Shown here: positions 40,060 through 55,914 of the stretch, in pieces
How the letters are laid out: every line of letters begins with the position of its first letter
Numbering within the stretch: position 1 is the stretch's first letter
DNA from: Minisyncoccota bacterium
Lineage (GTDB): Bacteria > Patescibacteriota > Minisyncoccia > Phycocordibacterales > UBA6065
DNA length: 64,000 bases
Direction of reading: 5' to 3'
Assembly (NCBI GenBank): GCA_041661645.1
Contig: JBAZUA010000003.1
Location: forward strand, 22,841 to 86,840
The notes under the pieces: generated by a model
Databases searched by the model: none
Told to the model about the DNA's origin: nothing
Seen by the model: the letters and a program-made list of their open reading frames with translations, nothing else
Program-made: the position numbers and the translations under genes

Positions 40060-40689
40060 ATGAACACACCGTCAGTCAGATTCGTCAGCCCGGATGATCC
40101 GATCCTCGTCACGGTCGCCAAGGAAGTCTTTCCGTCCGAGCTCGCCTCGCCGGAACTCGCCGAGGACATCGCCACGATGCTCAAGGCGGCATACGGCGAG
40201 CAGAGGGACGCCGCGAAGCCCCTCCTCGTCGGCCTCGCCGCGCCCCAGATCGGCATCTCGAGGAGGATAATCCTCGTCGACGTCGCGGCGGACGGGAAGG
40301 GGAGGGTCGGGGACCTCCGCCTCTACATCAACCCCGAAATCGTCTGGAGCTCCGAGGAGAGGGCCGAGTGGTACGAGGGCTGCTTCTCGACCAGTCGCGT
40401 CTGCGGCATCGTGTCGCGCCCCGTGAGCATCAGGGTCCGCGCCATCACCGCGAGGGGCGTCCTGCCCGTCGAGGAGGAATACTCGGGCTACACGGCCCGC
40501 ATCTTCCAGCACGAGATCGACCACCTGAATGGCAGGGAGTTCACGTCGCACATCACGAACGACGACCACCTGCACTGGGTGGAGAGGGACGAGTTCCCCG
40601 CCTACCGCAACGGCGAGGGGTGGAGAAACTGGCCCAGGAAGTGCTCCAGGGCGAGGTGGGAGGAGATCAAGGGGAAGAAGTGCTGCTAG
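40060..40689 (+). CDS. def: peptide deformylase
   Basis: GLAAPQIG, EGCFS, HEIDHLNG motifs. Confidence 0.85.
   Translation: MNTPSVRFVSPDDPILVTVAKEVFPSELASPELAEDIATMLKAAYGEQRDAAKPLLVGLAAPQIGISRRIILVDVAADGKGRVGDLRLYINPEIVWSSEERAEWYEGCFSTSRVCGIVSRPVSIRVRAITARGVLPVEEEYSGYTARIFQHEIDHLNGREFTSHITNDDHLHWVERDEFPAYRNGEGWRNWPRKCSRARWEEIKGKKCC
40647..40689 (+). repeat. def 3' end (last 13 codons + stop), copy 1 of a 43-nt duplicated segment
   Basis: 39/43 identical to 55872-55914; similarity continues weakly through downstream terminators. Confidence 0.8.
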
Positions 40690-40753
40690 TTGGCGATTTC
40701 CATATTCAAGGCGCGACCGAAAAACAGTCGCGCCTTTTTATTTACTAAAAACC

Positions 40754-40781
40754 GTTCTAACAACCTCCACCACGGCACCCA
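40754..40781 (+). repeat. 28-nt intergenic repeat copy A (GTTCTAACAACCTCCACCACGGCACCCA)
   Basis: Immediately after def terminator hairpin, 33 nt before next start. Confidence 0.8.
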
Positions 40782-40813
40782 ACGAGTTGACGGATCACCG
40801 TAATTAGCCCATC

Positions 40814-41374
40814 ATGCTTTCTATGAACTTTGCAATACCTGTAAGAGATGGCCTAGAGCTTCGCTTGAGGTCAGAAACGGATGCCGAGGCTTTCTTTGGG
40901 CTCACGGACAAGAATCGTGGCTATCTTAGGCGTTGGCTTCCATGGGTTGACGCCACCGTCACAGTCGAGGACACTCGAAAATACATCCGATCGGTTATCG
41001 AAAGGTTTGAGAAACGAGAAGGCATCGACCTGGGGATCTGGTATGACGGTCAGTGGGTCGGCTCGATAGGTTTTCACTATTGGGATAAGTCCAACAGGAA
41101 AGATACCGTCGGATACTGGCTCGCCGAAGATTTTCAGGGCAAAGGCATCATTACGGATGCGGTCCGTGCTCTTGTTGCGTATGGTTTTCAGACCATGGAC
41201 CTGAATCGCATCGAGATTCTTTGCGCGGTCGAGAACGCCAGAAGCCGTGCGGTTCCAGAACGGCTCGGGTTCAAGAACGAGGGCGTGACCCGGGAGTGCG
41301 AGTGGCTTTATGACCACTTCGTAGACCCAGTTACCTACAGCCTCCTTCGAAGCGAGTGGAAACCGAACAGATAG
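40814..41374 (+). CDS. GNAT family N-acetyltransferase (RimJ/RimL-like)
   Basis: GNAT motifs A/B (QGKGIITDAVRALVAYGF, RAVPERLGFKNEG). Confidence 0.8.
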   Translation: MLSMNFAIPVRDGLELRLRSETDAEAFFGLTDKNRGYLRRWLPWVDATVTVEDTRKYIRSVIERFEKREGIDLGIWYDGQWVGSIGFHYWDKSNRKDTVGYWLAEDFQGKGIITDAVRALVAYGFQTMDLNRIEILCAVENARSRAVPERLGFKNEGVTRECEWLYDHFVDPVTYSLLRSEWKPNR

Positions 41375-41428
41375 TTCAGACCTGCATAGCGAGAAATTGT
41401 TGTGCGGGCTTTTTATTTGCTTAAAGCG

Positions 41429-41456
41429 GTTCTAACAACCTCCACCACGGCACCCA
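41429..41456 (+). repeat. 28-nt intergenic repeat copy B (exact consensus)
   Basis: Preceded by ctttttatttgcttaaag; shares about 60 nt with copy E. Confidence 0.8.
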
Positions 41457-41517
41457 TTTAAGGATTTTCTTAAAAACGGCCTTATTTAGAGGGCTGTTTT
41501 TAGTTCTAACCAAGCTA

Positions 41518-41546
41518 TTGACAAATATAGATATAGGATATATAAT
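41518..41546 (+). promoter_or_regulatory. consensus sigma70 promoter TTGACA-17-TATAAT
   Basis: Perfect hexamers, 17-nt spacer, about 140 nt upstream of 41685 ORF. Confidence 0.6.
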
Positions 41547-41684
41547 ATAAAAAGATAGAACGTTGAATTGCTTCCATATAGTCATAGCCAAAAGGCCTTG
41601 AAATTCGAGGTTTCCTGGCTATGACTAACACTAGTCCTAGTATGTTCATCTATTAGGTGGGCATAAACATCAACTATCAGTTGT

Positions 41685-42125
41685 TTGGAGGACACTACAA
41701 TGGGCAAATATGGAAAAATTAACCTCGATAGCATCGAAGCTGTGATTAACAAGCTTGGCGGAGAAAAAGGGATTGAACTTTTTCTGACGAATAGCACTAT
41801 GGTTGTTCACCGCTCAATCCTTCGGTCGTGGAAAGATGGGCAACTCCCCGAGGAGCTCGTCAAAGTGAAGCTTGCCGACATCGGTGTTCAGTCGGAGCTG
41901 TTCACAGGTGAGGTCGCTAAACTCGCTGAAGGTTGTGGCTTGGAGCTGGCCATAAGCGAAGATCTCAATGTGTTCCAGTATCAGCCTTTCGGTGTAAAGA
42001 TGCTCGTCTACAATGGAGAAAAAAGCTACCGCTATTTCGAAAAGCACGAGCATGGCAGCAGCACGCAGAGCGCCGATCTGCTACGGTTCGGACCCGATGA
42101 CGAATTCTACTTCTTCAAGAAGTAA
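41685..42125 (+). CDS. hypothetical protein
   Basis: 146-aa ORF downstream of consensus promoter. Confidence 0.5.
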   Translation: MEDTTMGKYGKINLDSIEAVINKLGGEKGIELFLTNSTMVVHRSILRSWKDGQLPEELVKVKLADIGVQSELFTGEVAKLAEGCGLELAISEDLNVFQYQPFGVKMLVYNGEKSYRYFEKHEHGSSTQSADLLRFGPDDEFYFFKK

Positions 42126-42237
42126 GCCGCTCTGAGGATACAGCGTTCAACCTCAACCCCGTACCAAAAGTGCGGGGTTAAATTTTTACATGAACTTAGG
42201 AATATGAACGGCGTTGTCATCCAATCTCTCAAAAGTA

Positions 42238-42265
42238 GTTCTAACATCCTCTGCGACGGCATCCC
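42238..42265 (+). repeat. 28-nt repeat copy H (GTTCTAACATCCTCTGCGACGGCATCCC, degenerate)
   Basis: 21/28 match to consensus; upstream of 42340 ORF. Confidence 0.6.
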
Positions 42266-42339
42266 TCGATGTTATAAAAGCCTTGATTCAACTGGCTATC
42301 TAAGGCGAGAGGGAATTGAACTTGTGATATGATTTTGAC

Positions 42340-42855
42340 ATGGATAGATTACCTACAAATGAGCACGAACCAAGAATGGTCGACCTGTTCAGTCTTGAGA
42401 TGGAAGAAAAATTGAAAACCGAAGGAAAGATATATCACAGGAAAATCGAATCGATACGAGGCGCTGAGCAAGCTACGAGACCTCAGACGATAGAGACTCA
42501 TTTGCCCGATGGGACCCTTGAATCAACCGTTGATGCAAAGGAGGGAGAATGGATAATCACTGGATCTAAGGGGGAGAGGTTCGTGTTCAGTCAGAAGAAA
42601 TTTGACGGGCTCTATGACTCTGATGGAAAGGGAGGATTTGTACCCAAGGAGAGAAGGGTGTTTGCCATGGCCAACTCGTCTGGTGGGGCGGTGAGAATAT
42701 ATGCACCATGGGGCACGTCCGAAAAGCCGGCATATCAAGATGGCAGTGGAAAATGCTTCTTTGTCGCCTCGCTCGATGAAAGTGGAAACTTTACGAGTGA
42801 CAGGTATATCATTGGGGACGAAGAGTTGCTTTTGAGTAATTACGAGCCTGTTTAG
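42340..42855 (+). CDS. hypothetical protein
   Basis: 171-aa ORF. Confidence 0.5.
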   Translation: MDRLPTNEHEPRMVDLFSLEMEEKLKTEGKIYHRKIESIRGAEQATRPQTIETHLPDGTLESTVDAKEGEWIITGSKGERFVFSQKKFDGLYDSDGKGGFVPKERRVFAMANSSGGAVRIYAPWGTSEKPAYQDGSGKCFFVASLDESGNFTSDRYIIGDEELLLSNYEPV

Positions 42856-43000
42856 GGGCTGAATATGAGCTCTGTTTAGTAGGAAACAGCCTTGTTTTTT
42901 AGGTGTCATATAAGAGTTGCAAATAAAGGGATCGGGTATAGTATCCAATAAAGGAAAATGAAGCACCCCGCTTCATAAACAGACAGGACCTTAAAAACAT

Positions 43001-43492
43001 ATGAAACTCATGAAGAAAGCGAACCCGAGGAGGCCTTTTTATGATGCGGTCTGGCCAGATTGGTGGCATCACCACGGGAGCAAGATACAGGTCGAGGGGC
43101 GAGACGGAAACATCCTCACCCTCTCTGGTAGCGCGGCAAGACTGAGAATCATAAAGACTCCCAATGGAGGGGGTAACAGATTCATCATCGACTACGAGAT
43201 ACAGCACAGTGCCGACGGAAAGACGGCAAGGACTGTTCCCATGACACGAAATGAGCTCATGGCGGCCTTCCGCCTATCCGATAGGACGGGAGTCTTCGGG
43301 GACGGGCTCATTGAAAGATACGGGGCGGAATCGGCCCAACAGGGAGGATATATCCGGTGGGAAAAATTTCTCAACATACCGTGCCCCGGTACTGGCCATG
43401 ATGGCGACCCGAACATATCCCTCGAAGTGGACGAGCGGATACAGAAGGCGGTCAAAGACCTTCTCAAACGCAAGACCATCAGGGGCAAATGA
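43001..43492 (+). CDS. hypothetical protein
   Basis: 163-aa ORF. Confidence 0.5.
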   Translation: MKLMKKANPRRPFYDAVWPDWWHHHGSKIQVEGRDGNILTLSGSAARLRIIKTPNGGGNRFIIDYEIQHSADGKTARTVPMTRNELMAAFRLSDRTGVFGDGLIERYGAESAQQGGYIRWEKFLNIPCPGTGHDGDPNISLEVDERIQKAVKDLLKRKTIRGK

Positions 43493-43570
43493 AAGTCGGC
43501 CTCGGACAGACAAGCCGGACATCGAAAGGTGCCGGCTTTTTTATTTGAGAATAATACTATTATCGAGCGT

Positions 43571-43600
43571 GGCTCCAACAACCTCCACGACGGCACCCCA
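43571..43600 (+). repeat. repeat copy C (GGCTCCAACAACCTCCACGACGGCACCCCA)
   Basis: After terminator-like ggccggcttttttatttg; same ...CCTCCACGACGGCACCCCAAGAAA tail as copy I. Confidence 0.7.
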
Positions 43601-43644
43601 AGAAAAAGAGCTTGTGACGTATCGCTACGTCACAAGCCCTGTGT

Positions 43645-44754
43645 TTACTTTCGCAACTGTTCGATCGACCGTCTCAAGTTATTCCGGGCAGTACTTTCGT
43701 ACTTGTCTCGGAATAACTCTGTCGAGTAGATCGAAGGACGATCCAGAAAGGACTGGAGGATCTTAGATCGACCTGCGCAGAAGTCAGATTGTGGAACCCA
43801 CTCGTACTCCTTACGGATTCCGACTTCATACGCATCGAACTCCTTCTCTGGTTTTCCAAGGACCATGAGGTCAATGTCTACCAGAATCTGAGCGGCATGT
43901 TCAACCGGAACAGCTGTGTGCCTGGTGGCCACGACCAAATCATTGACCTGTTCACCCAACGAATCGGGCAAACCAATCTTTTTGATAGAGTCTTTAGCCA
44001 ACTTCGCACTCTGTTCCTCGTTATCCTTTGCTTTTTGGTCGTAGACGGCATCATGGAACCAGATTGCCAATGCAATGGCCAAATCGTTTTCGCCTGCCAG
44101 TTCGAGTTCATCGAGCGCGGCAACGATGTGGGCAATGTTGTGGTAGCCTCGATGAGGTTCACTATATCGTGTCAGGAGATCTTTCAGGACCGTTTCCGAT
44201 CCTTTGGGATTTCCCAATGCCGACATGAGTGTTGCCCAGTACTTCTGGGCCTTCCCAAGAATGAATTTCTCCTTGAGCTTGGTTACAACTGCCGCAGGCA
44301 CTGAGCGAGCCACTTGGCACTCCCACTCGGGATCGATTCCGACGTGGCCCTTTACCATGCTTGAACTCACATGCATGAGGTTCGGCAGGCAAGGGACCCA
44401 GACGGTTTCGATCTGTGGGCAGATCCTACGATTTTCTTCGGCCAGCGTCTGCTCGTCCTCGAGGTCTTTGAAGTTTCGCAGACCCCGGACGATGACTTGA
44501 GCGCCGATAGATTCGGCTTGCTTCACGACGTAATGGCCGATGCACACATCAACTGAAACATTCGGAAGCTGTGCTACAGCCGCCTTCGTCATACCCACTC
44601 GCTCCTCGGGAGTGAATGCGTACGTTTTTCGGGAATCCACCGCCACGAGAACGATGAGTTCGTCGTAGAGTGGTGCCATTCGTTCGATGACATTGATGTG
44701 ACCGTTGGTGATTGGATCAAGGCTTGCTGCATATACTGCTTTTCGTGCTTTCAT
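43645..44754 (-). CDS. coaD: phosphopantetheine adenylyltransferase (CoaD) fused to C-terminal HD-domain phosphohydrolase
   Basis: N-term SLDPITNGHINVIERM (PPAT HxGH-like); C-term YHNIAHIV...WFHDAVYD HD motifs. Confidence 0.7.
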   Translation of the reverse strand: MKARKAVYAASLDPITNGHINVIERMAPLYDELIVLVAVDSRKTYAFTPEERVGMTKAAVAQLPNVSVDVCIGHYVVKQAESIGAQVIVRGLRNFKDLEDEQTLAEENRRICPQIETVWVPCLPNLMHVSSSMVKGHVGIDPEWECQVARSVPAAVVTKLKEKFILGKAQKYWATLMSALGNPKGSETVLKDLLTRYSEPHRGYHNIAHIVAALDELELAGENDLAIALAIWFHDAVYDQKAKDNEEQSAKLAKDSIKKIGLPDSLGEQVNDLVVATRHTAVPVEHAAQILVDIDLMVLGKPEKEFDAYEVGIRKEYEWVPQSDFCAGRSKILQSFLDRPSIYSTELFRDKYESTARNNLRRSIEQLRK

Positions 44755-45353
44755 GACTGAACTCCTTTCTGTTGTTTGAGGTTGTGATAGAGATCGCTCA
44801 CTCTATCTTCGAGTTGGTTCAAGCTACAGTCTGTGTGAATCACGAACTGAGCCCGCTGTTCTTTTACCGACGATGGAAGTTGCTGATCAAGTCTGGCTTG
44901 TATCTGAACATCGTCCGTATGTCGGTTGTCTCGCAGTCTTCGAAACTGTTCGTGAGGATTGCAGGTCGCCACAATGATCGCGGCAAACTTGCCTTCACTG
45001 CCTGTTTCAAAAATGATAGCTGATTCCACTACGCAGATTTTGCTATCACCGGCCGAAGCAACTCTTTCATCTACAGTTGCCCAGACCAGAGGATGGATCA
45101 GAGTCTCAAGCAGCCTTTTCTTTTCAGGTTTCTCGAAGATGATCCTTGCAATTGTCTGGAAGTCTGCCTTTTCGTCCAGGAAGACGTTTGTGCCTAAGAT
45201 CGTATTGATTTGTTGTCTGTGGTCGTTGCCCGAGATAATCTCTTTCGCAATACGATCACAGTCTAGAATCAGTACATCCGGGAACTTTCCGAGTAGGGTA
45301 GCTATAGTGCTCTTGCCGCAGCCTATATTGCCCGTAAGTCCGAATGGCTTCAT
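44751..45353 (-). CDS. coaE: dephospho-CoA kinase
   Basis: GLTGNIGCGKST P-loop, CoaE-like. Confidence 0.8.
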   Translation of the reverse strand: MKPFGLTGNIGCGKSTIATLLGKFPDVLILDCDRIAKEIISGNDHRQQINTILGTNVFLDEKADFQTIARIIFEKPEKKRLLETLIHPLVWATVDERVASAGDSKICVVESAIIFETGSEGKFAAIIVATCNPHEQFRRLRDNRHTDDVQIQARLDQQLPSSVKEQRAQFVIHTDCSLNQLEDRVSDLYHNLKQQKGVQS

Positions 45354-45417
45354 AAGGTATCCTTTCTTTTCAAGGTTCTGTTCCGTGTCATCTTCGTCCT
45401 TTTGACAAATATAGTCA

Positions 45418-46212
45418 ATGGTGTATAATAACCGTTATACAAATATGCAAGAGCCACGAAAACACCTCATGGACCTCGGTTTAAGTGATTCAGAAGTCAC
45501 TGTTTATTTGGCTATGGTCTCAGGAGCTCGCACGGCTAGAGATCTCGTTAAAGTTACTCGCCTCAAAAGGCCAACTGTTTATTATGCGCTTGGCTGTTTA
45601 GAGAAACGAGGTCTAACCAGTAAGACGGGTCTGGCGGGTGATAAAAGCTTTTCACTTGAACCGATCGAGAAGTTGTCAGTCATTGCTAAAGAGAAGGCGT
45701 TGGAATTTTCTAAACTCCAGAATCACATCGATGAGATGATTCCTGCTTTGGCGGCAACATCATCTCCGGCCAACCAAAAACCAACGGTTGCTTTCTATGA
45801 GGGAGTAGATGCAGTGAAGAATGCGGTTATGGAAATGCTTTACTGCAAAAGTAAGCGAATTAATTCTGTCGTGCCTAAAGAAAACTTTTTCTGGCAGATC
45901 GGACAAGACTTTGTCGAACTCTTTATTGAGGAAAGAGTCAAAAGAAATATTAAAACCAAGAATCTTTGGGAGGTTCCTATAAACAAAGGACTTATAAAAC
46001 AATACTATGAAGGTCTTTCACAGGTTCGAATAGTACCAGAGATCATGCATGGGAAGTTCCAGACCACTATTTTCCTCTACGACAACAAGACGCTGTATGT
46101 ATCTTCAAAAAATAACAGTTACTGCGTTCTTATAACCTCTAAGGAACATACCGATACTATGCAGGCTTGGTTTGATGGGCTTTGGAGTATTTCAAAGGCT
46201 CACGACAGGTAA
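45418..46212 (+). CDS. TrmB family transcriptional regulator (second copy)
   Basis: wHTH TVYLAMVS...RPTVYYALGCLEKRGL, TrmB C-terminal domain. Confidence 0.65.
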   Translation: MVYNNRYTNMQEPRKHLMDLGLSDSEVTVYLAMVSGARTARDLVKVTRLKRPTVYYALGCLEKRGLTSKTGLAGDKSFSLEPIEKLSVIAKEKALEFSKLQNHIDEMIPALAATSSPANQKPTVAFYEGVDAVKNAVMEMLYCKSKRINSVVPKENFFWQIGQDFVELFIEERVKRNIKTKNLWEVPINKGLIKQYYEGLSQVRIVPEIMHGKFQTTIFLYDNKTLYVSSKNNSYCVLITSKEHTDTMQAWFDGLWSISKAHDR

Positions 46213-46291
46213 AAAGTTGAATTACGCTGAAACTGCCACACTTTGCATGTCAGGAATGTAGATCGTCGCATCATTCCTTTTCTCAAAAATA

Positions 46292-46319
46292 GTTCTAACT
46301 TTCTCTACGACGGCACCCA
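46292..46319 (+). repeat. repeat copy D (GTTCTAACTTTCTCTACGACGGCACCCA)
   Basis: 22/28 match to consensus. Confidence 0.65.
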
Positions 46320-46534
46320 ACGTAATAAGGAGGTTTAGGTGGGGAGAGTGATACGCTGTTCCGAATAGCTTGACAAAAACGAATTTAGTTGCAATATGAG
46401 CATTGCAAGCTCTTTAAATCTATTTGAAAGTAGCCCTCTGTACCCCGCGGATATAGGTGGCTGCTTTCAAAGAATTGGTTATCCAATTCACTCTAGGCAT
46501 TCCGCCAAAAGTTCTATGGCAGCAAGGAGAAACC

Positions 46535-47068: not shown

Positions 47069-47136
47069 ACTTCGCCGCCTCATCAATCAATCAGCCCGTC
47101 GCTTCACCGCGGCGGGCTTTTTATTTGCTTAAAACA

Positions 47137-47164
47137 GTTCTAACAACCTCCACCACGGCACCCA
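47137..47164 (+). repeat. repeat copy E (exact consensus)
   Basis: Preceded by terminator gcttcaccgcggcgggcttttt. Confidence 0.8.
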
Positions 47165-48650: not shown

Positions 48651-48671
48651 ACATCCACCAAGTCATTTAAG

Positions 48672-48699: not shown

Positions 48700-48822
48700 T
48701 CATGCAGGGAATGTTTATGGATGTGTTTATAAACATCCCTGACATTCGACCCAACATTAACTTTTTTCATTTGGTTTAATAACCACAAGGATTTTTCAGT
48801 TCTAACCTGGTAGACTTGATAT

Positions 48823-49728
48823 ATGAAAAATACACAAAATGGTTTTATTGTTCCATTTTCAATAGCCATTATTGGGGTATTGCTAGTAGGAGGGGGTGTT
48901 TATGTTTATCAAAAGAAAGCACCCCACCAACAAAACACGAAAGAAAATTCCGATACTGTGGTAGCAACATCTACTAAAACCAATGACGTTGGTGTGATAT
49001 CAACAAGTACAAAAAGCATGCCAAAAACGTCTTTGTCTCCAAAACCAAAATTCGATCCGTATGCACCAATGATCAGGCCTATCCCTGGTATCCACGGAAT
49101 GGAAACCGAAGATCTTACAAATCTTAAGTATCCCGATTGTTCAGCAGCGAGTACGCGCTCTGAGTATCACCCTGGACCAATTAATCTTACATCTAAAACT
49201 GGATTAATTGTTCAAGAGGAAAAGAATTACTATAACGTTAATGGTACAAATGAGTCACAGATATATTATGAGATATGGAATTGCACCATTCCAGTACGTG
49301 ATATGAATAATGGTGCCGACGCTATTACAGAAAGTTATTTAAATTACGATTTTAAATACGATACGATTAATAACAAGGTTTGCGGTATAAATAATGTAAC
49401 TGTTGGCGTCCATGTATCATATTTACTCCCTCGATGGATTTATGCGAAAGAGGCATCTGGGCCATTACTGAATATATGGAATACATATTTCGTTGCAATA
49501 CAAAAACATGAAGAACACCACGGTTCTATAGCGAAAGAATACGGCAACAAACTATATCTGTATCTGAGTGAATTATCTGCAAGTAAAGCTTGTGTGCCGT
49601 CTTTAGATTCAGTTGAGAGTAAGTTTAATGACACGATTAATGAACTTGATGCTGCCCAAGCGAAATACGATCTAGAGGTAGATCACGGAGTTAAGGAAGG
49701 CGTTTTTTCTCCTTTTGATAACATTTGA
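48823..49728 (+). CDS. membrane-anchored putative Zn-dependent protease (DUF922-like, HExxH)
   Basis: N-terminal TM; KHEEHHGSIAKEYG HExxH motif. Confidence 0.45.
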   Translation: MKNTQNGFIVPFSIAIIGVLLVGGGVYVYQKKAPHQQNTKENSDTVVATSTKTNDVGVISTSTKSMPKTSLSPKPKFDPYAPMIRPIPGIHGMETEDLTNLKYPDCSAASTRSEYHPGPINLTSKTGLIVQEEKNYYNVNGTNESQIYYEIWNCTIPVRDMNNGADAITESYLNYDFKYDTINNKVCGINNVTVGVHVSYLLPRWIYAKEASGPLLNIWNTYFVAIQKHEEHHGSIAKEYGNKLYLYLSELSASKACVPSLDSVESKFNDTINELDAAQAKYDLEVDHGVKEGVFSPFDNI

Positions 49729-49806
49729 TCTCGAGTCTGTGTGGTGAATTCGGGTATGATGAAATTAGGAATGAGAATCGTCACATCATCCTTCCTCTCA
49801 AACACG

Positions 49807-49832
49807 GTTCTAACATCCTCCACCACGGCACA
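49807..49832 (+). repeat. repeat copy G (GTTCTAACATCCTCCACCACGGCACA...)
   Basis: 24/26 match to consensus. Confidence 0.7.
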
Positions 49833-49860
49833 TCGATTTTGACTCTGTTATACTTCAGGC

Positions 49861-50217
49861 ATGCTGTTTGATGCAATACTTTATTTTGTAGTAGGAGGGG
49901 CATTCACCGCCCTTATTGTTCTCTTGGAAGAAAGCGGGTTCAGGCTCCTCTCTGGGCTTGCTGCTTTGGTTCCGGTCTTTACCCTCATTTCATATATTTT
50001 CATTGGTGAATCCAGGGGCGGATATGCCGTCGGTCAGCATTCTAAGCTTGTCTTGCTCGGGACGCTTGTCTCGTGGGTGCCATATATGATTGTCGTCGCA
50101 TATCTCTCTCCGAGGATCGGACCGCACAAGGCGATCGCTATCGGCATGGGCGTATTTTTCGTGTTGGCCACGGCCTTCCTGCTCATCGTCGCTCGATATG
50201 GCCTTTTTCAGGAATAG
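49861..50217 (+). CDS. small multi-pass membrane protein (hypothetical)
   Basis: 118 aa, 4 predicted TMs. Confidence 0.5.
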   Translation: MLFDAILYFVVGGAFTALIVLLEESGFRLLSGLAALVPVFTLISYIFIGESRGGYAVGQHSKLVLLGTLVSWVPYMIVVAYLSPRIGPHKAIAIGMGVFFVLATAFLLIVARYGLFQE

Positions 50218-50479
50218 ACCATCGCCATCAAATCCGGTTTTCCTTTAATTCCCGGTCTTGCCCGTGGTCGCGCCCGCTCGCTTGACTCCCGTTTCGGTAT
50301 CATGTAACATTCAAACATACATTTGAATGTATCCGCGTACTCGAGCCGATCGTTCTCGGGTACCCGGCTTCGGGTCACCTTTTGGCTGTTCTGTGTATTG
50401 GGATAATCACGCTCCTTACGGCGATAACCGGTTTTTGCCCATCATATAGACCCTTCGGTTCCTCGATAAAGAAACATCC

Positions 50480-50926
50480 ATGCCTTCTCATCACCAAGTG
50501 AATATGTCTGAAACTAAAAATAGCCTTCGAGGCAAGACCTTCGCGGGTTTTGGTGCCGTTGCGCTTGTCGCCGCTCTGTTGTTTTTGGTAAGTAGTTTTA
50601 GCGGTCCATCATCTGGCTATAACACAACACTCGGTTCCCAAGAATTTATATCGAGATACAGGGCCACTCCGAACGCCGAGCTTGTGGATGTTCGAACTCC
50701 AGCTGAGTTTGATTCGGGGCACATTGCCGGAGCGGTTGACATTGATTTTGAGGGACCGGGTTTTGAGGCGGCGGTCAAAGCGCTTGATCGGTCAAAGACG
50801 TATTTCGTCTATTGTCATTCTGGAAATAGATCAGGAAAAGCGACGGCTGTCATGCGACAAGAGGGTATCGCCCACATATATCAGTTGCAGGGCGGCGTCG
50901 CTTCCGCTTCGGCGCTAGTACGATAA
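50480..50926 (+). CDS. rhodanese-like sulfurtransferase with N-terminal TM
   Basis: Active-site loop CHSGNRSG. Confidence 0.75.
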   Translation: MPSHHQVNMSETKNSLRGKTFAGFGAVALVAALLFLVSSFSGPSSGYNTTLGSQEFISRYRATPNAELVDVRTPAEFDSGHIAGAVDIDFEGPGFEAAVKALDRSKTYFVYCHSGNRSGKATAVMRQEGIAHIYQLQGGVASASALVR

Positions 50927-50930
50927 ACGC

Positions 50931-51254
50931 ATGCATATAAATGTTTGTATGAAAGAACAAATTAAACAAAACAAAGTAGAGTCGCTGGCAAAAAAGCTTT
51001 TGATTGCCGGAGACTCGACGAGGCTCAAGATCCTATGCGTTATTTTTGATGATAGGAAAGCGTGCGTGTCAGAGATAGCCAAGAGGCTTGATATGGGCGT
51101 CGCCATCGTGTCGCACCACCTGCAGTCTCTGGCAAAGGCGGGGTTTCTTGAATCAAATCGAGAGGGAAGGCAGATTTGCTACTCACTTCTCAGGTCACGG
51201 TTCAATAGCGACCTGAAGGAGTTTATCTGTCGAAATAAGCAGAAAAACACATGA
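50931..51254 (+). CDS. ArsR/SmtB family transcriptional regulator
   Basis: wHTH ...CVSEIAKRLDMGVAIVSHHLQSLAKAGFL. Confidence 0.7.
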   Translation: MHINVCMKEQIKQNKVESLAKKLLIAGDSTRLKILCVIFDDRKACVSEIAKRLDMGVAIVSHHLQSLAKAGFLESNREGRQICYSLLRSRFNSDLKEFICRNKQKNT

Positions 51255-51377
51255 ACGCGACAGGGGTGTCACAAGTTATGGGTCGCCGTCGGTGACAAGG
51301 GGCGGGCGGTAAAGATGGTCAGGGGGTGTCAGCCGGAAGGATTCAGAAAGTCACTATCAAAATAATTAACACAAAAT

Positions 51378-51707
51378 ATGTCCAAAGTCTTAAACATCAA
51401 TGCGGATCAATTCGAAAAAGAGGTGATTCAATCCAAAGTCCCTGTTCTTGTTGATTTTTGGGCGCCTTGGTGCACGCCGTGCAAGATGATGGGCCCGGTT
51501 CTTGACGAGGTGGCAAAAGATGTGGGGGAGAAGGCGGGGGTCATAAAAATCGACGTCAATGATTCGCAAAACATCGCCCTCGCCCAGATGTTTCAAATTA
51601 TGAGCATACCAAGCATGAAGATATTCAAAGGCGGTGAAGTCGTGGGGGAGTATGTCGGCATGAGGTCAAAAGAAGATCTCGTCGATGGGCTCAGGGAGAA
51701 TATGTAG
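51378..51707 (+). CDS. trxA: thioredoxin
   Basis: WAPWCTPCK active site, 109 aa. Confidence 0.85.
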   Translation: MSKVLNINADQFEKEVIQSKVPVLVDFWAPWCTPCKMMGPVLDEVAKDVGEKAGVIKIDVNDSQNIALAQMFQIMSIPSMKIFKGGEVVGEYVGMRSKEDLVDGLRENM

Positions 51708-51903
51708 GCTTAAGTGATGTTCCTTGGTGGGATAGAGGAATACGGCATGAACAAGTGAAATCGCGATAATCGAAGGCCGTTTCTGAGGAGAGATACCCCA
51801 AAGAGGCCAAGGAAAGAAAATACGCGCCCTCGTTGTATTAGGGGTGTGAGGGTTGAAAGATGTAAAAATCAATTTTTCCTTCGTAACTCTAAATAAAAAC
51901 AAA

Positions 51904-52290
51904 ATGAAAAAAATAACATTAGGACTAGGGATATCGGCGGCTATCTTGGGAGTGACGGCTGTCTCTGCTGGGTCCGCCCTCGCGTATAGAGGCGATCCTA
52001 CGGCACAGGGCCCAAATTATTCGACAGAGCGCCATTCTGCGATGGTGAGGGCGCTTGAGGCTGGTGACTACGGCGCCTGGAAGAGTCTCGTGCAAAATCG
52101 AGGTAGGGTTGCCCAAGTCATTACCAAGGGAGACTTTTCGAAGTTTGTGGAGGCACACAACCTTGCCCTGCAGGGTAAAACGCTTGAGGCTCAGAAGATT
52201 CGTCAGGGACTTGGATTGGGCCTGCAGAATGGTTCCGCAAGGACCAGCGGCGGCATGATGGGGCGGATGGGCGGGAATTTCAATCGTTAA
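51904..52290 (+). CDS. secreted hypothetical protein
   Basis: Signal peptide MKKITLGLGISAAILGVTAVSAGSALA; start chosen at internal Met of 51853 ORF. Confidence 0.45.
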   Translation: MKKITLGLGISAAILGVTAVSAGSALAYRGDPTAQGPNYSTERHSAMVRALEAGDYGAWKSLVQNRGRVAQVITKGDFSKFVEAHNLALQGKTLEAQKIRQGLGLGLQNGSARTSGGMMGRMGGNFNR

Positions 52291-52369
52291 TTGGAACGGG
52301 TCAATGGTCAAGCTCCGGCATTCGTCGGAGTTTGATGTACCCATGAGGGATGTGGGATAAAATACACGT

Positions 52370-52912
52370 ATGAGTGAGACCTTAAAGTTTACCGATGAAG
52401 AGATCGTCGAAAAAGTTCGCTCAGGTGATCGGGATCTCTATGCGATCATAATTGAGAGATATAAAGACAAGTTATTGAGATATGCGGCAAATATGCTGCG
52501 GGATAATGATAGGGCGGTTAATCTTGTCCAGGATTCCCTGGTAAAGGCATATATAAATCTCAATGGCTTTAATACCCAAAAGAAGTTTTCCAGCTGGATA
52601 TACCGCATCGTTCACAACGAGGCGATCAACTTGATAAAGAAGCGTCAAAAGGAAATACCGATACCGGACAGCTTTGACTTTGAAAGTGAACAGGATATTA
52701 CAAAAGAGTTTGAGGAGAAGGAGACGGCGATATATGTGGAGAAGTGTTTGGGTGCTATGCCGCTTATATATTCTGAGCCGTTGAGCTTATATTATTTAGA
52801 TGAGAAGTCCTACGCTGAAATAGGTGAGATTCTCAGGATTCCGATTGGTACGGTCGCGACAAGGATGAGCAGAGCGAAAAAATTAATGAAACACATATGT
52901 CAAAAGAATTAA
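52370..52912 (+). CDS. ECF-type RNA polymerase sigma factor
   Basis: Region 2 (LVQDSLVKAYINL) and region 4 HTH (EIGEILRIPIGTVATRMSRAKKL). Confidence 0.8.
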   Translation: MSETLKFTDEEIVEKVRSGDRDLYAIIIERYKDKLLRYAANMLRDNDRAVNLVQDSLVKAYINLNGFNTQKKFSSWIYRIVHNEAINLIKKRQKEIPIPDSFDFESEQDITKEFEEKETAIYVEKCLGAMPLIYSEPLSLYYLDEKSYAEIGEILRIPIGTVATRMSRAKKLMKHICQKN

Positions 52913-53403
52913 AAGACATCACGGACGATATCATGGGTCAGATCCACGACAGGAAGATAAAGATGCGTCCCAGAATGTGTTTCATTGCCGGTTCAATACT
53001 TACCTTTGTGGGACTTGTCTCCTCGGTTGTGGTTTCTGTTTTCCTGGTCGGGCTTATACGCTTCTCGCTCCGATCGCACGGGCCGATGGCTGGCTATAGA
53101 TTGAATCAGGTGCTTTTCAGTTTTCCGTGGTGGGCCCCTGCGCTCGCCCTTGTTGGGCTGGTTGTTGGGATATGGCTTCTTCGCAAGTACGATTTTTCTT
53201 TTAAGGTAAACTTCAGGGTTATAATCGCCGGATTTGTCTTGGCGGTAATTGCTGCTGGTTGGATCATTGATGGTATTGGCTTGAATGATCTCTTGGTACG
53301 GCGCGGCCCAATGCAGGGCATGATGCGGCAATATGTGCAGGATAATAATCCTCAAGGCATGCGAGGCGGTGGTCAAGGTTGGGGTACGAATAGGGGAAAT
53401 TGA
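52897..53403 (+). CDS. putative membrane anti-sigma factor
   Basis: 16-nt overlap with sigma gene; multi-TM protein. Confidence 0.45.
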   Translation: MSKELKDITDDIMGQIHDRKIKMRPRMCFIAGSILTFVGLVSSVVVSVFLVGLIRFSLRSHGPMAGYRLNQVLFSFPWWAPALALVGLVVGIWLLRKYDFSFKVNFRVIIAGFVLAVIAAGWIIDGIGLNDLLVRRGPMQGMMRQYVQDNNPQGMRGGGQGWGTNRGN

Positions 53404-53499
53404 TCTCAGTCGGGAATTGTCTGGGTACGGTGGATCGTGGTATGTCTACGTTAAAACCCAGTACCCGACCCAAAGGATTTTTTTGCTATACTCTGAATC

Positions 53500-55083
53500 A
53501 TGTCTTTGACCGAAGAATCGAAAATGTACCTCGTCGGCGGCGGCATCGCATCGTTGTCCGCGGCCGTGTATCTCATAAGGGATGCGAAGGTGAAAGGATC
53601 CAACATTCACATTCTGGAGGAGTCTCAGGGGATCGGTGGCAGCCTCGACGCCAAAGACCTTTCCTCGTCTGAGGGCTATTCGATGCGGGGAATCAGGATG
53701 TTTGAGGAAAAGACCTATAACTGCCTGTTCGACCTCATGGCGTCCATCCCGTCTCTCAATGCCCCGGGAAAGACTCTGCGACAGGAGTTTGTGGACTACA
53801 ACAGACAGAACAAGACCTACTCAAAGGCAAGGCTTCTCAGGGCCGGAAATGCAATCGACGGAAGACCCTTGGGGCTAAGTGCCGGGGATCGACTCAACCT
53901 CCTTGGCCTGGTCCTCAGGCGGGAGTCCTCTCTGGAGGGTATGGAGATAGGGCGATATTTCACCGCCTCCTTTTTCCGTTCCAATTTCTGGTATGAGTTC
54001 TGCACCGTGTTCGCGTTTCAGCCGTGGCACAGCCTGACGGAGTTCAGGAGATATCTTTTCCGATTCATTCAGGATTTCTCGAGCATCGACACTCTGAAGA
54101 GCATAGAGAGCTCGCCCTACAATCAGCACGAGTTTCTCGTGCTGCCGATCGTCGATTGGCTGAAGCGGGAGGGTGTGACGTTCGCGACCGGCACCAGGGT
54201 TACTGACCTTGAACTCATCTCGACTGCACATGAAAAGAGGGTGGGGTGCATTCATTACGAAAGAGAGGGAAAGGCGGGCAAGATCGCCCTTGGCGATGAT
54301 TTCGTGTTCGTGACCCTCGGCTCGCTCGTCGCGAATTCGAGCACGGGTTCGATGAGTGCGGCACCCTTGTCGAATCTCGACAGGAAGGATGCGTCGTGGG
54401 CCCTGTGGGAGAACCTCTCGAAGGGCCGACCCGAGTTCGGCAGGCCTTCCGTCTTCAGCGGCGACGTCGAGAAATCGACGTGGACATCCTTTACCGTCAC
54501 GTTTCGCGACCCGCTCTTTTTGGATCTCATGGACAGGTTCATCCACAGGGATGTGAATGCCTATGGGGGAGTGAACATCATTGACTCGAACTGGCTCATC
54601 TCCATCGTGCTGTCCTACAAGCCTTATTTTATCAATCAGCCGGAAGGCGTTAGTTTGTGCTGGGGCTACGGATTGCTTTCTGAGCAGAAGGGAAACTTTG
54701 TCCAAAAGAAAATGTTGGAATGCACCGGAAAAGAGATTCTCACCGAACTGCTGTGCCATCTTGGTTTTGAGGAGCACCTTGAGGCGATCATGAAGAGTGC
54801 CGTGTGCATTCCGTGCACGACCCCGTTCGTGACGAGCCTGTTTCTGCCCAGGAAGAGATCTGACAGGCCTTTGGTCGTGCCAGAGGGCGCCGCGAACTTC
54901 GCTTTTCTGGGCCAATACTGTGAGATCCCGCACGAGGTGGTGTTCACTGTCGAGCACTCCGTGCGCTCTGCCCAGATTGCCGTCTATTCGCTTCTTGGTC
55001 TGAATAAGAAGGTTGCCCCGATCTATAGGGGAGTCCGACACGTCAGCATCCTCTATCAGGCCATGAGAACCCTGCTTAGATAG
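53500..55083 (+). CDS. oleate hydratase (MCRA family, FAD-dependent)
   Basis: N-terminal MYLVGGGIASLSAAVYL FAD fold; overall MCRA-like 527 aa. Confidence 0.75.
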   Translation: MSLTEESKMYLVGGGIASLSAAVYLIRDAKVKGSNIHILEESQGIGGSLDAKDLSSSEGYSMRGIRMFEEKTYNCLFDLMASIPSLNAPGKTLRQEFVDYNRQNKTYSKARLLRAGNAIDGRPLGLSAGDRLNLLGLVLRRESSLEGMEIGRYFTASFFRSNFWYEFCTVFAFQPWHSLTEFRRYLFRFIQDFSSIDTLKSIESSPYNQHEFLVLPIVDWLKREGVTFATGTRVTDLELISTAHEKRVGCIHYEREGKAGKIALGDDFVFVTLGSLVANSSTGSMSAAPLSNLDRKDASWALWENLSKGRPEFGRPSVFSGDVEKSTWTSFTVTFRDPLFLDLMDRFIHRDVNAYGGVNIIDSNWLISIVLSYKPYFINQPEGVSLCWGYGLLSEQKGNFVQKKMLECTGKEILTELLCHLGFEEHLEAIMKSAVCIPCTTPFVTSLFLPRKRSDRPLVVPEGAANFAFLGQYCEIPHEVVFTVEHSVRSAQIAVYSLLGLNKKVAPIYRGVRHVSILYQAMRTLLR

Positions 55084-55150
55084 GGGGTCAGCGGGGAATG
55101 AAAAACAGCCCGCGCACTGGTTGTGTGCGGGCTGTTGCTGGTTTCACTTG

Positions 55151-55807
55151 CTAGTCGAGACGATGCAGTTCCGGGGCGACGATAGATTTGGCACTCTTGC
55201 CGTCCCACGATATGCGTCCGCACACCACGTGGTTGGTGATGATTGCCTGCCACTTGTGCTCGGCCCGGTTCACCTTCGCCGCGATGCTGTCGGGCGTGTC
55301 GTCGGGGAGTATCCGCACCTTCTTGCGAAAGAACACCCCGACCTCCGAGTCGTATTCGGACGTGACGAAATGCATCGTCACCCCCGTGTGGGTGATCTCG
55401 CCGCGTCTGTATGCCGCGATGACCGCCTCGTGGACATGATGCCCGTGGAATCCCTTGCCGCAGAACGGCGAGGGGATGAGGGCCGGATGGATGTTGAACG
55501 TCGTCCGGGGATCAAGTCCCTCGACCTGTCCGAGCCACCCCGAGAGCGCCACGAAGTCGGCCCGGGTCTCCTGGACGATTCGCCGGTAGTCCTCCGAGGT
55601 GCGACCCTTGGGGGAGTGGATGAACGGGATGCCGAACCTGTCCGCCCGCTTTCTGACCCCACCGTCCTGGTGGTTCGAGACTACTGCCACGATGGGCGAG
55701 CAAAGCATTCCGTTTTCTGTGGCGAGAACGAGCTTTTCGAAGCCCGATCCGCCGCCGTCCTGGCTTCCTGACGCGAACACGATCAGTCTGGGTGGTGTGC
55801 CTTGCAT
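55151..55807 (-). CDS. formyltransferase, PurN-like (phosphoribosylglycinamide formyltransferase family)
   Basis: NIHPALIP...GVTMHFVTSEYDSEVGV motifs; 218 aa. Confidence 0.7.
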   Translation of the reverse strand: MQGTPPRLIVFASGSQDGGGSGFEKLVLATENGMLCSPIVAVVSNHQDGGVRKRADRFGIPFIHSPKGRTSEDYRRIVQETRADFVALSGWLGQVEGLDPRTTFNIHPALIPSPFCGKGFHGHHVHEAVIAAYRRGEITHTGVTMHFVTSEYDSEVGVFFRKKVRILPDDTPDSIAAKVNRAEHKWQAIITNHVVCGRISWDGKSAKSIVAPELHRLD

Positions 55808-55871
55808 GGTATTGGGTGTGTTGAGGTTGCGATTCTCTGGTCAGACTAGCCGAAGAGGGCCTGAAAATCAA

Positions 55872-55914
55872 CAGGGCGAGGTGGGAGGAGATCAAGGGGT
55901 CGAAGTCTTGCTAG
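55872..55914 (+). repeat. orphan duplicate of def 3' end (cagggcgaggtgggaggagatcaaggggtcgaagtcttgctag)
   Basis: 39/43 identical to 40647-40689; not part of any intact ORF; followed by terminator like the original. Confidence 0.8.

What the first reader, a model, noticed from the sequence alone, without database searches (positions are those of the whole stretch)
40647..55914. 43-nt duplicate of the def 3' end at 55872 brackets a ~15-kb segment: candidate integration scar
The last 13 codons plus stop of peptide deformylase (40647-40689) reappear as an orphan fragment at 55872-55914 (39/43 identical). Each copy is followed by a diverged but recognizably similar terminator region (atttccatattcaagg.../atttcaattcaggg...). 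Duplication of a target gene's 3' end is the hallmark of site-specific integration that reconstitutes the gene at one end. The enclosed segment carries the repeat-punctuated cassette array, an ECF sigma/anti-sigma pair, thioredoxin/ArsR/rhodanese, an oleate hydratase and a purN-like formyltransferase. The formyltransferase is oriented divergently from the orphan def fragment, unlike the canonical def-fmt operon.
Basis: partly seen in the sequence, partly recalled or inferred. Interest (0 to 1): 0.6.

Follow-up and report, generated by a model that had tools for sequence, protein, structure and literature searches.

The report
Stub of a second deformylase cassette
The 43-base copy of the deformylase gene's end is real. 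It is most likely the leftover stub of a second, diverged deformylase gene cassette inside a tRNA-His-anchored array of small gene cassettes tied to serine recombinases in an uncultured CPR bacterium, not the footprint of an element that integrates into the deformylase gene.

Summary
40647-40689 and 55872-55914 match 39/43, and the first 28 nt are identical. Homology continues for about 150 nt through a terminator hairpin, which carries a compensatory stem change, into a degenerate repeat.

- No recombinase is encoded in the ORFs scanned across the 64 kb.
- In the only collinear relative (L193/L194), tRNA-His lies 42 nt from purN. The extra ~15 kb therefore runs from tRNA-His (39953) to the purN terminator (~55095). 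It contains the intact def and excludes the orphan.
- The orphan sits on purN's 5' side, where collinearity ends.

The window's 9-copy repeat encodes, on the minus strand, the C-terminal tail (GAVVEDVRTVFERRNDATIYIP) of a CPR large-serine-recombinase family whose gene runs across its own att site. Many members carry antisense-tRNA-His tails instead.

In 38 of 38 metagenome loci that hold both, tRNA-His lies upstream of the repeats on the same strand, with a median of 745 nt to the first repeat. In the window that distance is 767 nt, and the unit in between is def.

Both def ends are therefore "cassette 3' ends" (ORF end, terminator, att). One is intact. The other is a stub at a recombination joint. 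The enzyme and the donor are unknown.

The parts
39881..39952 (+). tRNA-His (GTG). Anchor of the cassette array. Its last 8 nt, GGCACCCA, are also the last 8 nt of 5 of the 9 att repeats.
   Evidence: ARAGORN and Rfam. Alignment A4. tRNA-His lies upstream of all att copies in 38 of 38 metagenome loci that have both.
40060..40689 (+). Intact peptide deformylase gene (CPR type, with a C-terminal extension). It is the only ORF in the first, tRNA-proximal unit of the array.
   Evidence: Pfam Pep_deformylase 1.1e-31. GC3 0.93. It lies inside the block that is absent from L193.
40647..40689 (+). Copy 1 of the 43-nt repeat (last 13 codons plus stop of def). 40647-40674 is the 28-nt perfect block.
40708..40736 (+). 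def intrinsic terminator hairpin, followed by a T-run. It overlaps the left part of the first att.
   Evidence: Folds at -18.3 kcal/mol, z -3.3.
40719..40785 (+). att repeat 1. Its minus strand reads LGAVVEVVRTVFSK*.
   Evidence: nhmmer E 8.7e-10.
41412..41460 (+). att repeat 2 (short class), after the GNAT cassette 40814-41374.
   Evidence: nhmmer 7.1e-09. Pfam.
42193..42268 (+). att repeat 3 (long class).
   Evidence: nhmmer 5.8e-15.
43557..43604 (+). att repeat 4. 43582-43605 is copy 1 of the second perfect repeat (24 nt).
   Evidence: nhmmer 2.1e-05..
46246..46323 (+). att repeat 5 (long class).
   Evidence: nhmmer 4e-21.
47120..47169 (+). att repeat 6 (short class).
   Evidence: nhmmer 1.2e-09.
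47897..47974 (+). att repeat 7 (long class).
   Evidence: nhmmer 1.5e-13.
49761..49831 (+). att repeat 8 (long class).
   Evidence: nhmmer 3e-16.
39953..55095 (.). Block absent from the collinear relative L193/L194. It holds def, the cassette array, coaD/coaE, TrmB, rhodanese/ArsR/thioredoxin, the ECF sigma gene with its putative anti-sigma partner, and oleate hydratase.
   Evidence: Synteny by tblastx/blastn and tRNA scans. Pfam.
55151..55807 (-). PurN-like formyltransferase. In L193 it is the syntenic neighbour of tRNA-His, and it is the last collinear gene.
   Evidence: Pfam Formyl_trans_N 8.2e-17. TIGR00639 PurN 5.4e-20, below the curated cut-off. 72% identity to P0242 on L193.
55872..55914 (+). 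Copy 2 of the repeat: an orphan def 3' stub (13 codons plus stop). Its left edge abuts a weak -35-like hexamer upstream of purN and coincides with the end of collinearity with L193.
55938..55966 (+). Terminator hairpin of the orphan unit, followed by a T-run. It carries a compensatory stem change relative to the def terminator.
   Evidence: Folds at -15.1 kcal/mol, z -1.7, so the fold signal is weak. Alignment A2.
55967..56021 (+). Degenerate stretch that aligns at about 57% with att repeat 1. The att profile does not recognise it.
   Evidence: pairwise similarity. (no profile hit even without filters).
56187..56597 (+). Single-ORF cassette of unknown function between the orphan unit and the last att.
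   Evidence: Gene called in L088. No Pfam or NCBIfam hit.
56891..56940 (+). att repeat 9, outside the repeat-bracketed segment. 56918-56941 is copy 2 of the 24-nt perfect repeat.
   Evidence: nhmmer 1e-4..

Best explanation
The two def ends are the 3' ends of two diverged copies (alleles) of the same module: def ORF end, intrinsic terminator, att repeat. This module is a 'def cassette' in a tandem array anchored at the 3' end of tRNA-His.

Shown:
- The array's repeats are the conserved C-terminal coding arm of the att site of a CPR family of large serine recombinases (LSRs). The LSR gene runs across its own att site.
- Such arrays start just downstream of tRNA-His in dozens of other contigs.
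- In this genome the first unit after tRNA-His is def.
- The intact def lies inside DNA that the closest collinear genome lacks.
- The orphan lies where collinearity stops.

Inferred:
- One recombination between two related genomes produced the arrangement. Both genomes carried a def cassette downstream of tRNA-His but differed in later cassettes and in flank. One had tRNA-His, def, a long array, then purN. The other had tRNA-His, def, one cassette, then the MBL-fold gene.
- That event joined purN's promoter region (55871) to the interior of the other genome's def cassette (55872). The left side recombined by homology, possibly within the 28-nt identical block. The right side joined illegitimately, or the incoming DNA integrated Campbell-style.
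- The redundant def copy survives only as 13 codons plus its terminator.
- No def-specific integrase is involved. Which side was donor and which recipient is unresolved.
For: 1. Both copies are followed, in register, by a terminator hairpin and then the att position. Divergence is graded: 28/28, then 11/15, then about 60%. One stem pair shows a compensatory change, as expected if both terminators evolved separately under constraint.

2. A second perfect pair (43582-43605 = 56918-56941) gives the interleaved order A..B..A..B. Two versions of a locus are thus bounded by a def end on the left and the same att variant on the right, with different cassettes inside.

3. Identity of the att repeat. 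Its minus strand encodes GAVVEDVRTVFERRNDATIYIP. The third codon position is the most variable in 12 of 13 codons. The same peptide is the C-terminus of LSRs in L100/L168, L111, L113 and L182 and in homologues P0121, P0153, P0155, P0176 and P0206.

4. 44 of the 120 LSR homologues listed end in antisense-tRNA-type tails. Several match the antisense translation of the window's own tRNA-His, GA*RELNSRYRFHKPEFYH.

5. tRNA-His is present in 38 of the 96 att-bearing metagenome loci. In all 38 it lies on the same strand and upstream of every att, with a median of 745 nt to the first att. In the window that distance is 767 nt, and the unit is def.

6. Across 21 contigs (the window included) there are 34 inter-att intervals with a median of 1.27 kb. 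Orientation is never mixed, and 84% of ORF residues lie on the strand opposite the att peptide.

7. L193/L194 are collinear with the window from SpoU to tRNA-His and then purN, 42 nt apart, with no def and no att.

8. No recombinase was found in the ORFs scanned.

9. The context of def is unconserved in relatives at about 70% identity. The 90% cluster of this def has a single member, so neither an 'empty-site' allele nor the donor def is in the database.
Against: - There is no LSR in the 64 kb, and no evidence of excision or circle formation.
- The stretch after the orphan's terminator is not recognised by the att profile. Calling it a 'decayed att' rests on 57% pairwise identity.
- The orphan's hairpin folds only weakly better than shuffles (z -1.7).
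- Only one collinear relative exists, at about 65-75% nucleotide identity, so the polarity (insertion here versus loss there) is not proven.
- purN looks like the native flank by synteny, yet it has att-bearing units on both sides and no att next to its terminator. The one-step two-genome model explains this but is untested.
- def's GC3 of 0.93 is unlike every other cassette (0.29-0.64).
- No def was found in the first units of the other loci.
- The 28-nt perfect block could be either the crossover site or mere conservation of the RARWEEIKG motif under strong GC3 bias.
Confidence: 0.5

Rival explanations
1. A 15.2-kb integrative element (40647/40675 to 55871/55899) inserted by site-specific recombination into the 3' end of def. 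It carried its own def-like 3' end, which reconstituted the gene. The orphan is the displaced original end (attR).
For: Direct repeats with a perfect 28-nt block sit exactly at the abrupt left edge of homology, with diverged homologous sequence only to the right. This is the geometry expected of attL/attR. Most of the enclosed DNA has atypical composition.
Against: No integrase lies in or near the segment, or in any other ORF scanned. The element would have to carry purN, yet purN is the syntenic neighbour of tRNA-His in L193/L194, in the same orientation. The repeat array continues past the orphan. The segment is compositionally mosaic.
Confidence: 0.1
2. A two-step history within one lineage. 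A complete second def once lay divergent from purN, either native or delivered earlier by the array. After a new def cassette arrived next to tRNA-His, the redundant copy lost its promoter and first 195 codons by an ordinary deletion that stopped at purN's promoter.
For: The orphan begins directly at a weak -35-like hexamer 64 nt upstream of purN (TTGATT-17 nt-TAGTCT, read from the sequence). That is consistent with a deletion limited by selection for purN expression. If units insert at the tRNA, the tRNA-proximal position of the intact def implies it is the newer arrival. The four mismatches lie in the family-variable tail.
Against: It needs several events. It does not explain why collinearity with L193 ends exactly at the orphan, or how att-bearing units came to lie beyond purN. 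About 40% divergence of the terminators argues for two lineages rather than an in-genome duplicate.
Confidence: 0.25
3. The orphan is cargo of a multi-cassette block (43606-56941) that a serine recombinase inserted at the att variant shared by 43582 and 56918. The def stub was captured earlier in a donor.
For: The 24-nt perfect att pair includes 7 nt beyond the conserved core and brackets 13.3 kb. L168 shows an LSR sitting at an att copy inside a tRNA-His array.
Against: The block would again include the syntenic purN. This model only pushes the origin of the stub back to an unknown donor event. LSR recombination does not require or produce 24-nt identity.
Confidence: 0.1

Closest known systems
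Tandem accretion of integrative elements and recombinase-less derivatives at one attachment site (CIME/ICE accretion at fda in Streptococcus thermophilus; arrays of genomic islands at tRNA genes; SCCmec composite arrays at rlmH made by the serine recombinases CcrAB). Cited from my own knowledge.
   Same: A single chromosomal anchor at the 3' end of a gene (here tRNA-His). Direct att repeats in one orientation separate the units. Most units lack a recombinase. A serine recombinase family is associated with the site. Partial gene ends accumulate.
   Different: The units are mostly single-ORF, with a median of 1.27 kb, which is integron-like. The repeat is not a copy of the target gene's end. It is the protein-coding C-terminal arm of the recombinase's own att site. 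No recombination has been demonstrated.
Integrons and CALINs (clusters of attC sites lacking an integrase)
   Same: Arrays of small, mostly one-gene cassettes, each ending in a recombination-site repeat, all in one orientation. Arrays often occur without the recombinase nearby.
   Different: The recombinase is a large serine recombinase, not the tyrosine recombinase IntI. The repeats show no attC-like hairpin (z -0.3 to +1.4). The array is anchored at tRNA-His. The cassette ORFs examined end in their own terminators, and some are preceded by promoter-like sequences.
attP overlapping the 3' end of the phage's own gene, so that integration changes the protein's C-terminus. Examples are the mycobacteriophage Tweety integrase (PMC2884959, listed but not read) and integration-dependent immunity. 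Cited from my own knowledge.
   Same: The recombinase ORF runs across the att site. The C-terminal tail therefore depends on what the site is joined to: antisense tRNA-His, or GAVVEDVRT...
   Different: Those are tyrosine integrases or repressors of phages. Here it is a serine recombinase family in CPR bacteria, with 0 hits in IMG/VR. The functional consequence of the tail swap is untested.
Gene-3'-end-targeting genomic islands that reconstitute the target gene
   Same: A duplicated 3' end of a protein-coding gene in direct orientation, with an identical block at one edge.
   Different: There is no integrase. The boundaries given by synteny do not coincide with the repeats. The duplicated module includes a terminator and an att of another system.

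Membership tests
Site-specific integrative element targeting the 3' end of def | Direct repeats (attL/attR) with an identical core flanking the element | tested here: met
   28/28 identical and 39/43 overall, in direct orientation, 15,225 nt apart.
Site-specific integrative element targeting the 3' end of def | An integrase or recombinase gene inside the element, usually next to one att site | tested here: not met
   No recombinase Pfam domain in any ORF of 100 aa or more between 37.5 and 60.7 kb, or in the other ORFs scanned. LSR tblastn finds only tail fragments.
Site-specific integrative element targeting the 3' end of def | An unoccupied site in related genomes, joined at the repeat | tested here: not met
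   Other contigs carrying these exact proteins come from the same strain with the same arrangement. The def 90% cluster has one member. The only collinear relative joins tRNA-His directly to purN and has no def there.
Site-specific integrative element targeting the 3' end of def | The bracketed segment behaves as one foreign unit | tested here: not met
   GC3 is 0.29-0.64 for most genes but 0.72-0.81 for oleate hydratase and purN. There are eight internal att repeats and one beyond the orphan.
Large-serine-recombinase integrative elements in tandem at a tRNA gene | A recombinase with Resolvase, Recombinase and zinc-ribbon domains associated with the repeats | tested here: inconclusive
   Absent from the window. 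In L100/L168, L111, L113, L182, L188 and L190 the repeat is the 3' end of such a gene.
Large-serine-recombinase integrative elements in tandem at a tRNA gene | Units anchored at the 3' end of a specific tRNA gene, with att repeats in direct orientation | tested here: met
   In 38 of 38 loci tRNA-His is upstream and on the same strand. There are no mixed-orientation arrays. The window has tRNA-His, then 767 nt, then the first att.
Large-serine-recombinase integrative elements in tandem at a tRNA gene | Demonstrated recombination (excised circles, empty sites, mapped crossover dinucleotide) | not testable with these tools
   This needs read-level data or an in vitro/in vivo att x att assay.
Integron | An IntI tyrosine recombinase with attI | tested here: not met
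   No tyrosine recombinase in the ORFs scanned. The associated enzyme in related loci is a serine recombinase.
Integron | attC sites that fold as imperfect hairpins | tested here: not met
   Three long-class repeats, folded on both strands as DNA, give z-scores from -0.31 to +1.43. The repeat shows codon periodicity instead.

The most novel reading that the evidence does not exclude
CPR bacteria carry a tRNA-His-anchored, integron-like platform of mostly single-gene cassettes run by a family of large serine recombinases. The last ~22 codons of the recombinase gene are one arm of its own att site, so joining to tRNA-His or to an earlier att copy swaps the enzyme's C-terminal tail. This could act as a built-in switch of activity or direction. 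Even the housekeeping gene def travels as a cassette, and the orphan def end records the turnover of one def cassette by another.
Probability: 0.4. Interest if true: 0.8.

Novelty: new variant of a known kind. Interest (0 to 1): 0.55.

Why it matters
As a def duplication alone, this is an ordinary recombination scar. Its context is more informative.

It links a widespread 66-nt repeat in groundwater and other CPR metagenomes to the C-terminal coding end of a serine-recombinase family, and to tRNA-His as the anchor. The repeat was found in 96 stretches in one scan.

If the model holds, it describes how ultra-small CPR genomes acquire and turn over single genes at one hotspot. It offers a natural set of att sites and recombinases with a possible tail-swap control. 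It also shows that an essential translation gene (def) can sit in, and be replaced through, such a hotspot.

Five literature searches on serine recombinases or integrons with CPR/Patescibacteria or cassette arrays found no description of such arrays. That search is limited to open-access text.

Tried and rejected
- **Exact-protein look-ups** for def, purN and the MBL gene returned only the same strain in three samples, at 99.9-100% identity and with the same arrangement. No polymorphic empty site was found.
- **Genome-contig scan with a def profile.** Only two CPR loci were returned, and neither is syntenic.
- **def relatives at about 70% identity** (L084, L186, L187) have unrelated neighbours.
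- **Viral contigs** gave 0 hits for both the att pattern and the def 28-mer.
- **Rfam** found only tRNAs.
- **attC-like folding** of the repeats was rejected.
- **A duplicated tRNA-His 3' end** at the far boundary of the indel was not found.
- **Shared cassettes** between the window and other arrays were not found at E <= 1e-5, apart from unlinked TrmB, ArsR and sigma homologues.
- **Relaxed profile search** for an att after the orphan, next to the purN terminator, or after tRNA-His found nothing.
- **purN relatives** L192, L195 and L197 are not syntenic.
- **A 'perfect promoter' after the orphan** was my own reading error. The spacing between TTGACA and TATAAT is 20 nt, and the scan found no canonical promoter.
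- **Similarity of the def and purN leaders** is suggestive only. The score is 16.5, reached by 1 of 5000 shuffles, but several other places in the window score as high.
- **An early idea that the repeat is an independent small ORF** was rejected. The preceding codon is a start codon (ATG, GTG or TTG) in only 31 of 80 distinct copies and is TAG in 4.

Full report
**1. The observation**

The window comes from a Candidatus Paceibacterota (CPR/Patescibacteria) MAG. The def protein is 100% identical to an NCBI entry of that name on a 169,511-bp contig.

The ORF 40060-40689 is a peptide deformylase (Pfam 1.1e-31). It is the CPR type, with a conserved C-terminal extension ...KCxRxKWExIKG.

Its last 43 nt reappear at 55872-55914 with 39/43 identity. 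The first 28 nt are identical and occur exactly twice in the window, with none expected by chance. The four mismatches all lie in the last 15 nt.

The left edge of homology is abrupt. No further def sequence lies upstream of the orphan. To the right, homology continues for about 110 nt more (A2). The local score downstream of the stop is 25, against 7.6 +/- 1.2 in shuffles (0 of 2000).

Both copies are followed by a hairpin and a T-run, at -18.3 and -15.1 kcal/mol (z -3.3 and a weaker -1.7). One stem pair changed on both sides, C:G to T:A.

Contigs from three independent samples cover both junctions at 99.9-100% identity. The duplication is real and non-random.

**2. No integrase, and the segment is not one unit**

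Pfam scans of about 65 ORFs of 100 aa or more found no integrase, recombinase or transposase. The 30073-33984 block and a few other ORFs were not scanned.

The bracketed 15.2 kb holds these genes:
- GNAT
- four ORFs of unknown function
- coaD-HD and coaE
- a TrmB-like regulator
- a methyltransferase
- a DUF922 protein
- GlpM-like
- rhodanese, ArsR and thioredoxin
- an ECF sigma factor and a putative anti-sigma protein (no Pfam match above cut-off)
- an MCRA/oleate hydratase
- a PurN-like formyltransferase on the minus strand

GC3 ranges from 0.29 to 0.64 for the genes between 40.8 and 53.4 kb. It is 0.72 for oleate hydratase, 0.81 for purN and 0.93 for def. Sampled core genes range from 0.68 to 0.81.

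**3. What the 'repeat-punctuated array' is**

Nine copies of a repeat lie between 40719 and 56940, all on the plus strand. The core is GTTCTAAC..CTC..CSACGGCACCC. The last copy lies beyond the orphan.

Read on the minus strand, the repeat encodes (L/W)G-AVVEDVRTVFERRNDATIYIP. A pattern scan of JGI metagenomes returned 96 stretches, many from CPR-rich groundwater. In 80 distinct copies, the third codon position is the most variable in 12 of 13 codons. The preceding codon is not a conserved start, and the ORFs end 10-41 codons later.

In L100/L168, L111, L113 and L182 the same peptide is the C-terminus of a 440-560-aa protein with Resolvase, Recombinase and zinc-ribbon domains. These are large serine recombinases (LSRs).

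A homology search found 675 relatives, mostly labelled Patescibacteria or Paceibacterota. Their sequences diverge after a conserved ...RG:
- 5 of the 120 listed carry the GAVVEDVRT tail.
- 44 of 120 carry tails of the type ...RESNP..FHKLQC or ...RELNSRYRLHKPKFYH.
- The antisense translation of the window's own tRNA-His is GA*RELNSRYRFHKPEFYH.

The LSR gene therefore runs across its att site, and the tail reports what the site is joined to. Most often that is the 3' end of tRNA-His.

In 5 of the 9 copies the repeat ends with GGCACCCA, the last 8 nt of tRNA-His (A4). My reading is an inference. The 66-nt repeat would be the other arm of attP. It would be under coding constraint because it supplies the enzyme's tail when the gene is not joined to the tRNA. 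It would then be left at the distal end of each inserted unit.

**4. The array is anchored at tRNA-His, and def is its first unit**

38 of the 96 metagenome loci contain a tRNA-His gene. In all 38 it is on the same strand as, and upstream of, every repeat. The median distance to the first repeat is 745 nt.

Arrays of 2-4 repeats occur in about 20 further contigs. Across 21 contigs, the window included, there are 34 non-redundant intervals with a median of 1.27 kb. Orientation is never mixed, and 84% of ORF residues lie on the opposite strand and end at the repeat.

L168 shows tRNA-His, then 1.4 kb, then a repeat that forms the 3' end of an LSR gene. An LSR can therefore sit at a repeat copy inside an array.

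The repeats do not fold like attC sites. They were not found in IMG/VR.

In the window, tRNA-His ends at 39952 and the first repeat starts at 40719. That is 767 nt, and the only gene in this unit is def. By its architecture, def is the tRNA-proximal cassette.

**5. The comparative test**

The best homologue of the PurN-like protein (P0242, 72% identity) lies on L193/L194. L193 is collinear with the window, in reverse orientation. The shared order is:
- SpoU methylase
- Mur ligase
- RuvA
- tRNA-Arg and tRNA-Ser
- RuvX
- a VTT-domain protein
- tRNA-Arg and tRNA-Val
- rplS (87% amino-acid identity)
- the LAGLIDADG ORF
- tRNA-Leu
- tRNA-His

In L193 the purN stop codon is 42 nt from tRNA-His. There is no def and no att in the 20 kb.

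Relative to this genome, the window has about 15.1 kb extra between 39953 and the purN terminator at about 55095. That block contains the intact def. The orphan lies on the other (5') side of purN, and collinearity ends there. L193 continues with PQ-loop and MFS genes. The window continues with the orphan, one cassette, the last att and an MBL-fold gene.

If the bracketed segment were the element, purN would have to be cargo of a def-targeting element. The conserved tRNA-His/purN neighbourhood and orientation make that unlikely.

**6. A second repeat pair**

43582-43605 and 56918-56941 are identical over 24 nt. This is an att variant plus 7 flanking nt.

The order is def-end, att variant, def-end, att variant. 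Two versions of one locus therefore lie in tandem, separated by 12.3 kb. Each runs from a def end and terminator through cassettes to this att variant. One version holds four ORFs and three further att repeats. The other holds a single ORF.

The roughly 40% divergence of the terminator regions, together with the compensatory stem change, argues that the two versions diverged in separate lineages. It argues against a recent in-genome duplication.

**7. Best explanation**

The orphan is the 3' stub of a second allele of the def cassette. It is preserved at a recombination joint between two related versions of the tRNA-His locus.

The most economical history is one exchange between relatives that both had def as the first cassette but differed in later cassettes and in flank (purN versus the MBL gene). 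Homology, possibly the 28-nt block itself, resolved one side. The other side joined purN's promoter region to codon 196 of the other def.

I put this at about 0.5. The rivals are:
- A two-step history, in which a redundant def is later truncated by deletion: about 0.25.
- A multi-cassette block moved by an LSR at the shared att variant: about 0.1.

The enzyme, the donor and the polarity are all inferred. The facts that remain unexplained are in the notebook:
- att-bearing units lie on both sides of the syntenic purN.
- There is no conserved half-site after GGCACCCA that would explain how LSR-less units move.
- def has an extreme GC3.

**8. Comparison with known systems, and novelty**

The arrangement works like tandem accretion of integrative elements and their recombinase-less derivatives at one site. 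Comparable cases are tRNA-gene island arrays, CIME/ICE accretion and SCCmec composites made by serine recombinases. The cassettes are integron-sized. An att site inside the recombinase gene recalls mycobacteriophage cases.

It fails the defining tests for an integron, having no IntI and no attC hairpin. It also fails those for a def-targeting island, having no integrase, no empty site and mismatched boundaries.

Searches of open-access literature found no description of such LSR-linked arrays in CPR bacteria.

I rate the def duplication itself as ordinary. The context is a new variant of a known kind.

Noticed in passing
window 15317-15390: ARAGORN calls this a 'tRNA-Stop' with anticodon TTA. 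Aligned with the tRNA-Lys(TTT) of L193 (20219-20292), the anticodon loop CTTTTAA is identical, and the only difference within the tRNA lies outside the loop. The suppressor call is a register artefact and this is an ordinary tRNA-Lys. It sits at the left edge of a low-GC block at 15-19 kb (GC 0.45), which holds a DUF3800 gene and a second TrmB-like gene.
   Followed up: yes
window 25202-26608: Parts of a diversity-generating retroelement: a bAvd-like ORF (25202-25642, minus strand) next to a reverse transcriptase ORF (25583-26608, plus strand). The 24-27 kb stretch is absent from the collinear relative L193.
   Followed up: no
window 31543-38160: A second block absent from L193, between the VTT-domain gene and tRNA-Arg/Val. 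It includes a P-type cation ATPase (34171-36804) and a UDG-family gene (37517-38161), both of low GC (0.45). This is another insertion next to tRNA genes.
   Followed up: partly
window 39042-39749; L193 11424-12167: A free-standing LAGLIDADG endonuclease ORF lies between rplS and tRNA-Leu. It is conserved in position in the relative L193/L194. An HNH endonuclease ORF (29507-29980) abuts tRNA-Ser.
   Followed up: no
window 41429-41510 and 47137-47217 (also GTTCTAAC at 48799): A mini-unit of about 74 nt, bounded by two GTTCTAAC motifs, is duplicated at 93% identity after two short-class att repeats. On the minus strand it would encode only MGAVVEVVRTALSK*. It may be the remnant of a deleted unit, or it may mark the crossover region.
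   Followed up: partly
window 39990-40059 versus 55808-55871 (minus strand): The def leader and the purN leader share a motif of about 45 nt (CCCTC..TTC.GCTAGT.T ... GCAACCTCAA) in inverted orientation. The score is 16.5, reached by 1 of 5000 shuffles, but a few unrelated places in the window score as high. It could be a shared promoter or regulatory element, or chance.
   Followed up: partly
LSR homologues P0121-P0240; L188 1-10000: The C-terminal tails of this recombinase family read like a catalogue of targets: antisense tRNA-His, other tRNAs, or the GAVVEDVRT arm. One member, on L188, has a reverse transcriptase, an Mrr-like nuclease and a TerB_N protein upstream of it, which suggests defence-type cargo.
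   Followed up: partly
L192 8974-13858: In another relative the PurN-like gene sits in a purN-purF-purD cluster, so it is probably a genuine GAR transformylase rather than a short Fmt. A homologue (53% identity) of the window's MBL-fold gene (57251-57886) lies 3.6 kb from it there.
   Followed up: no
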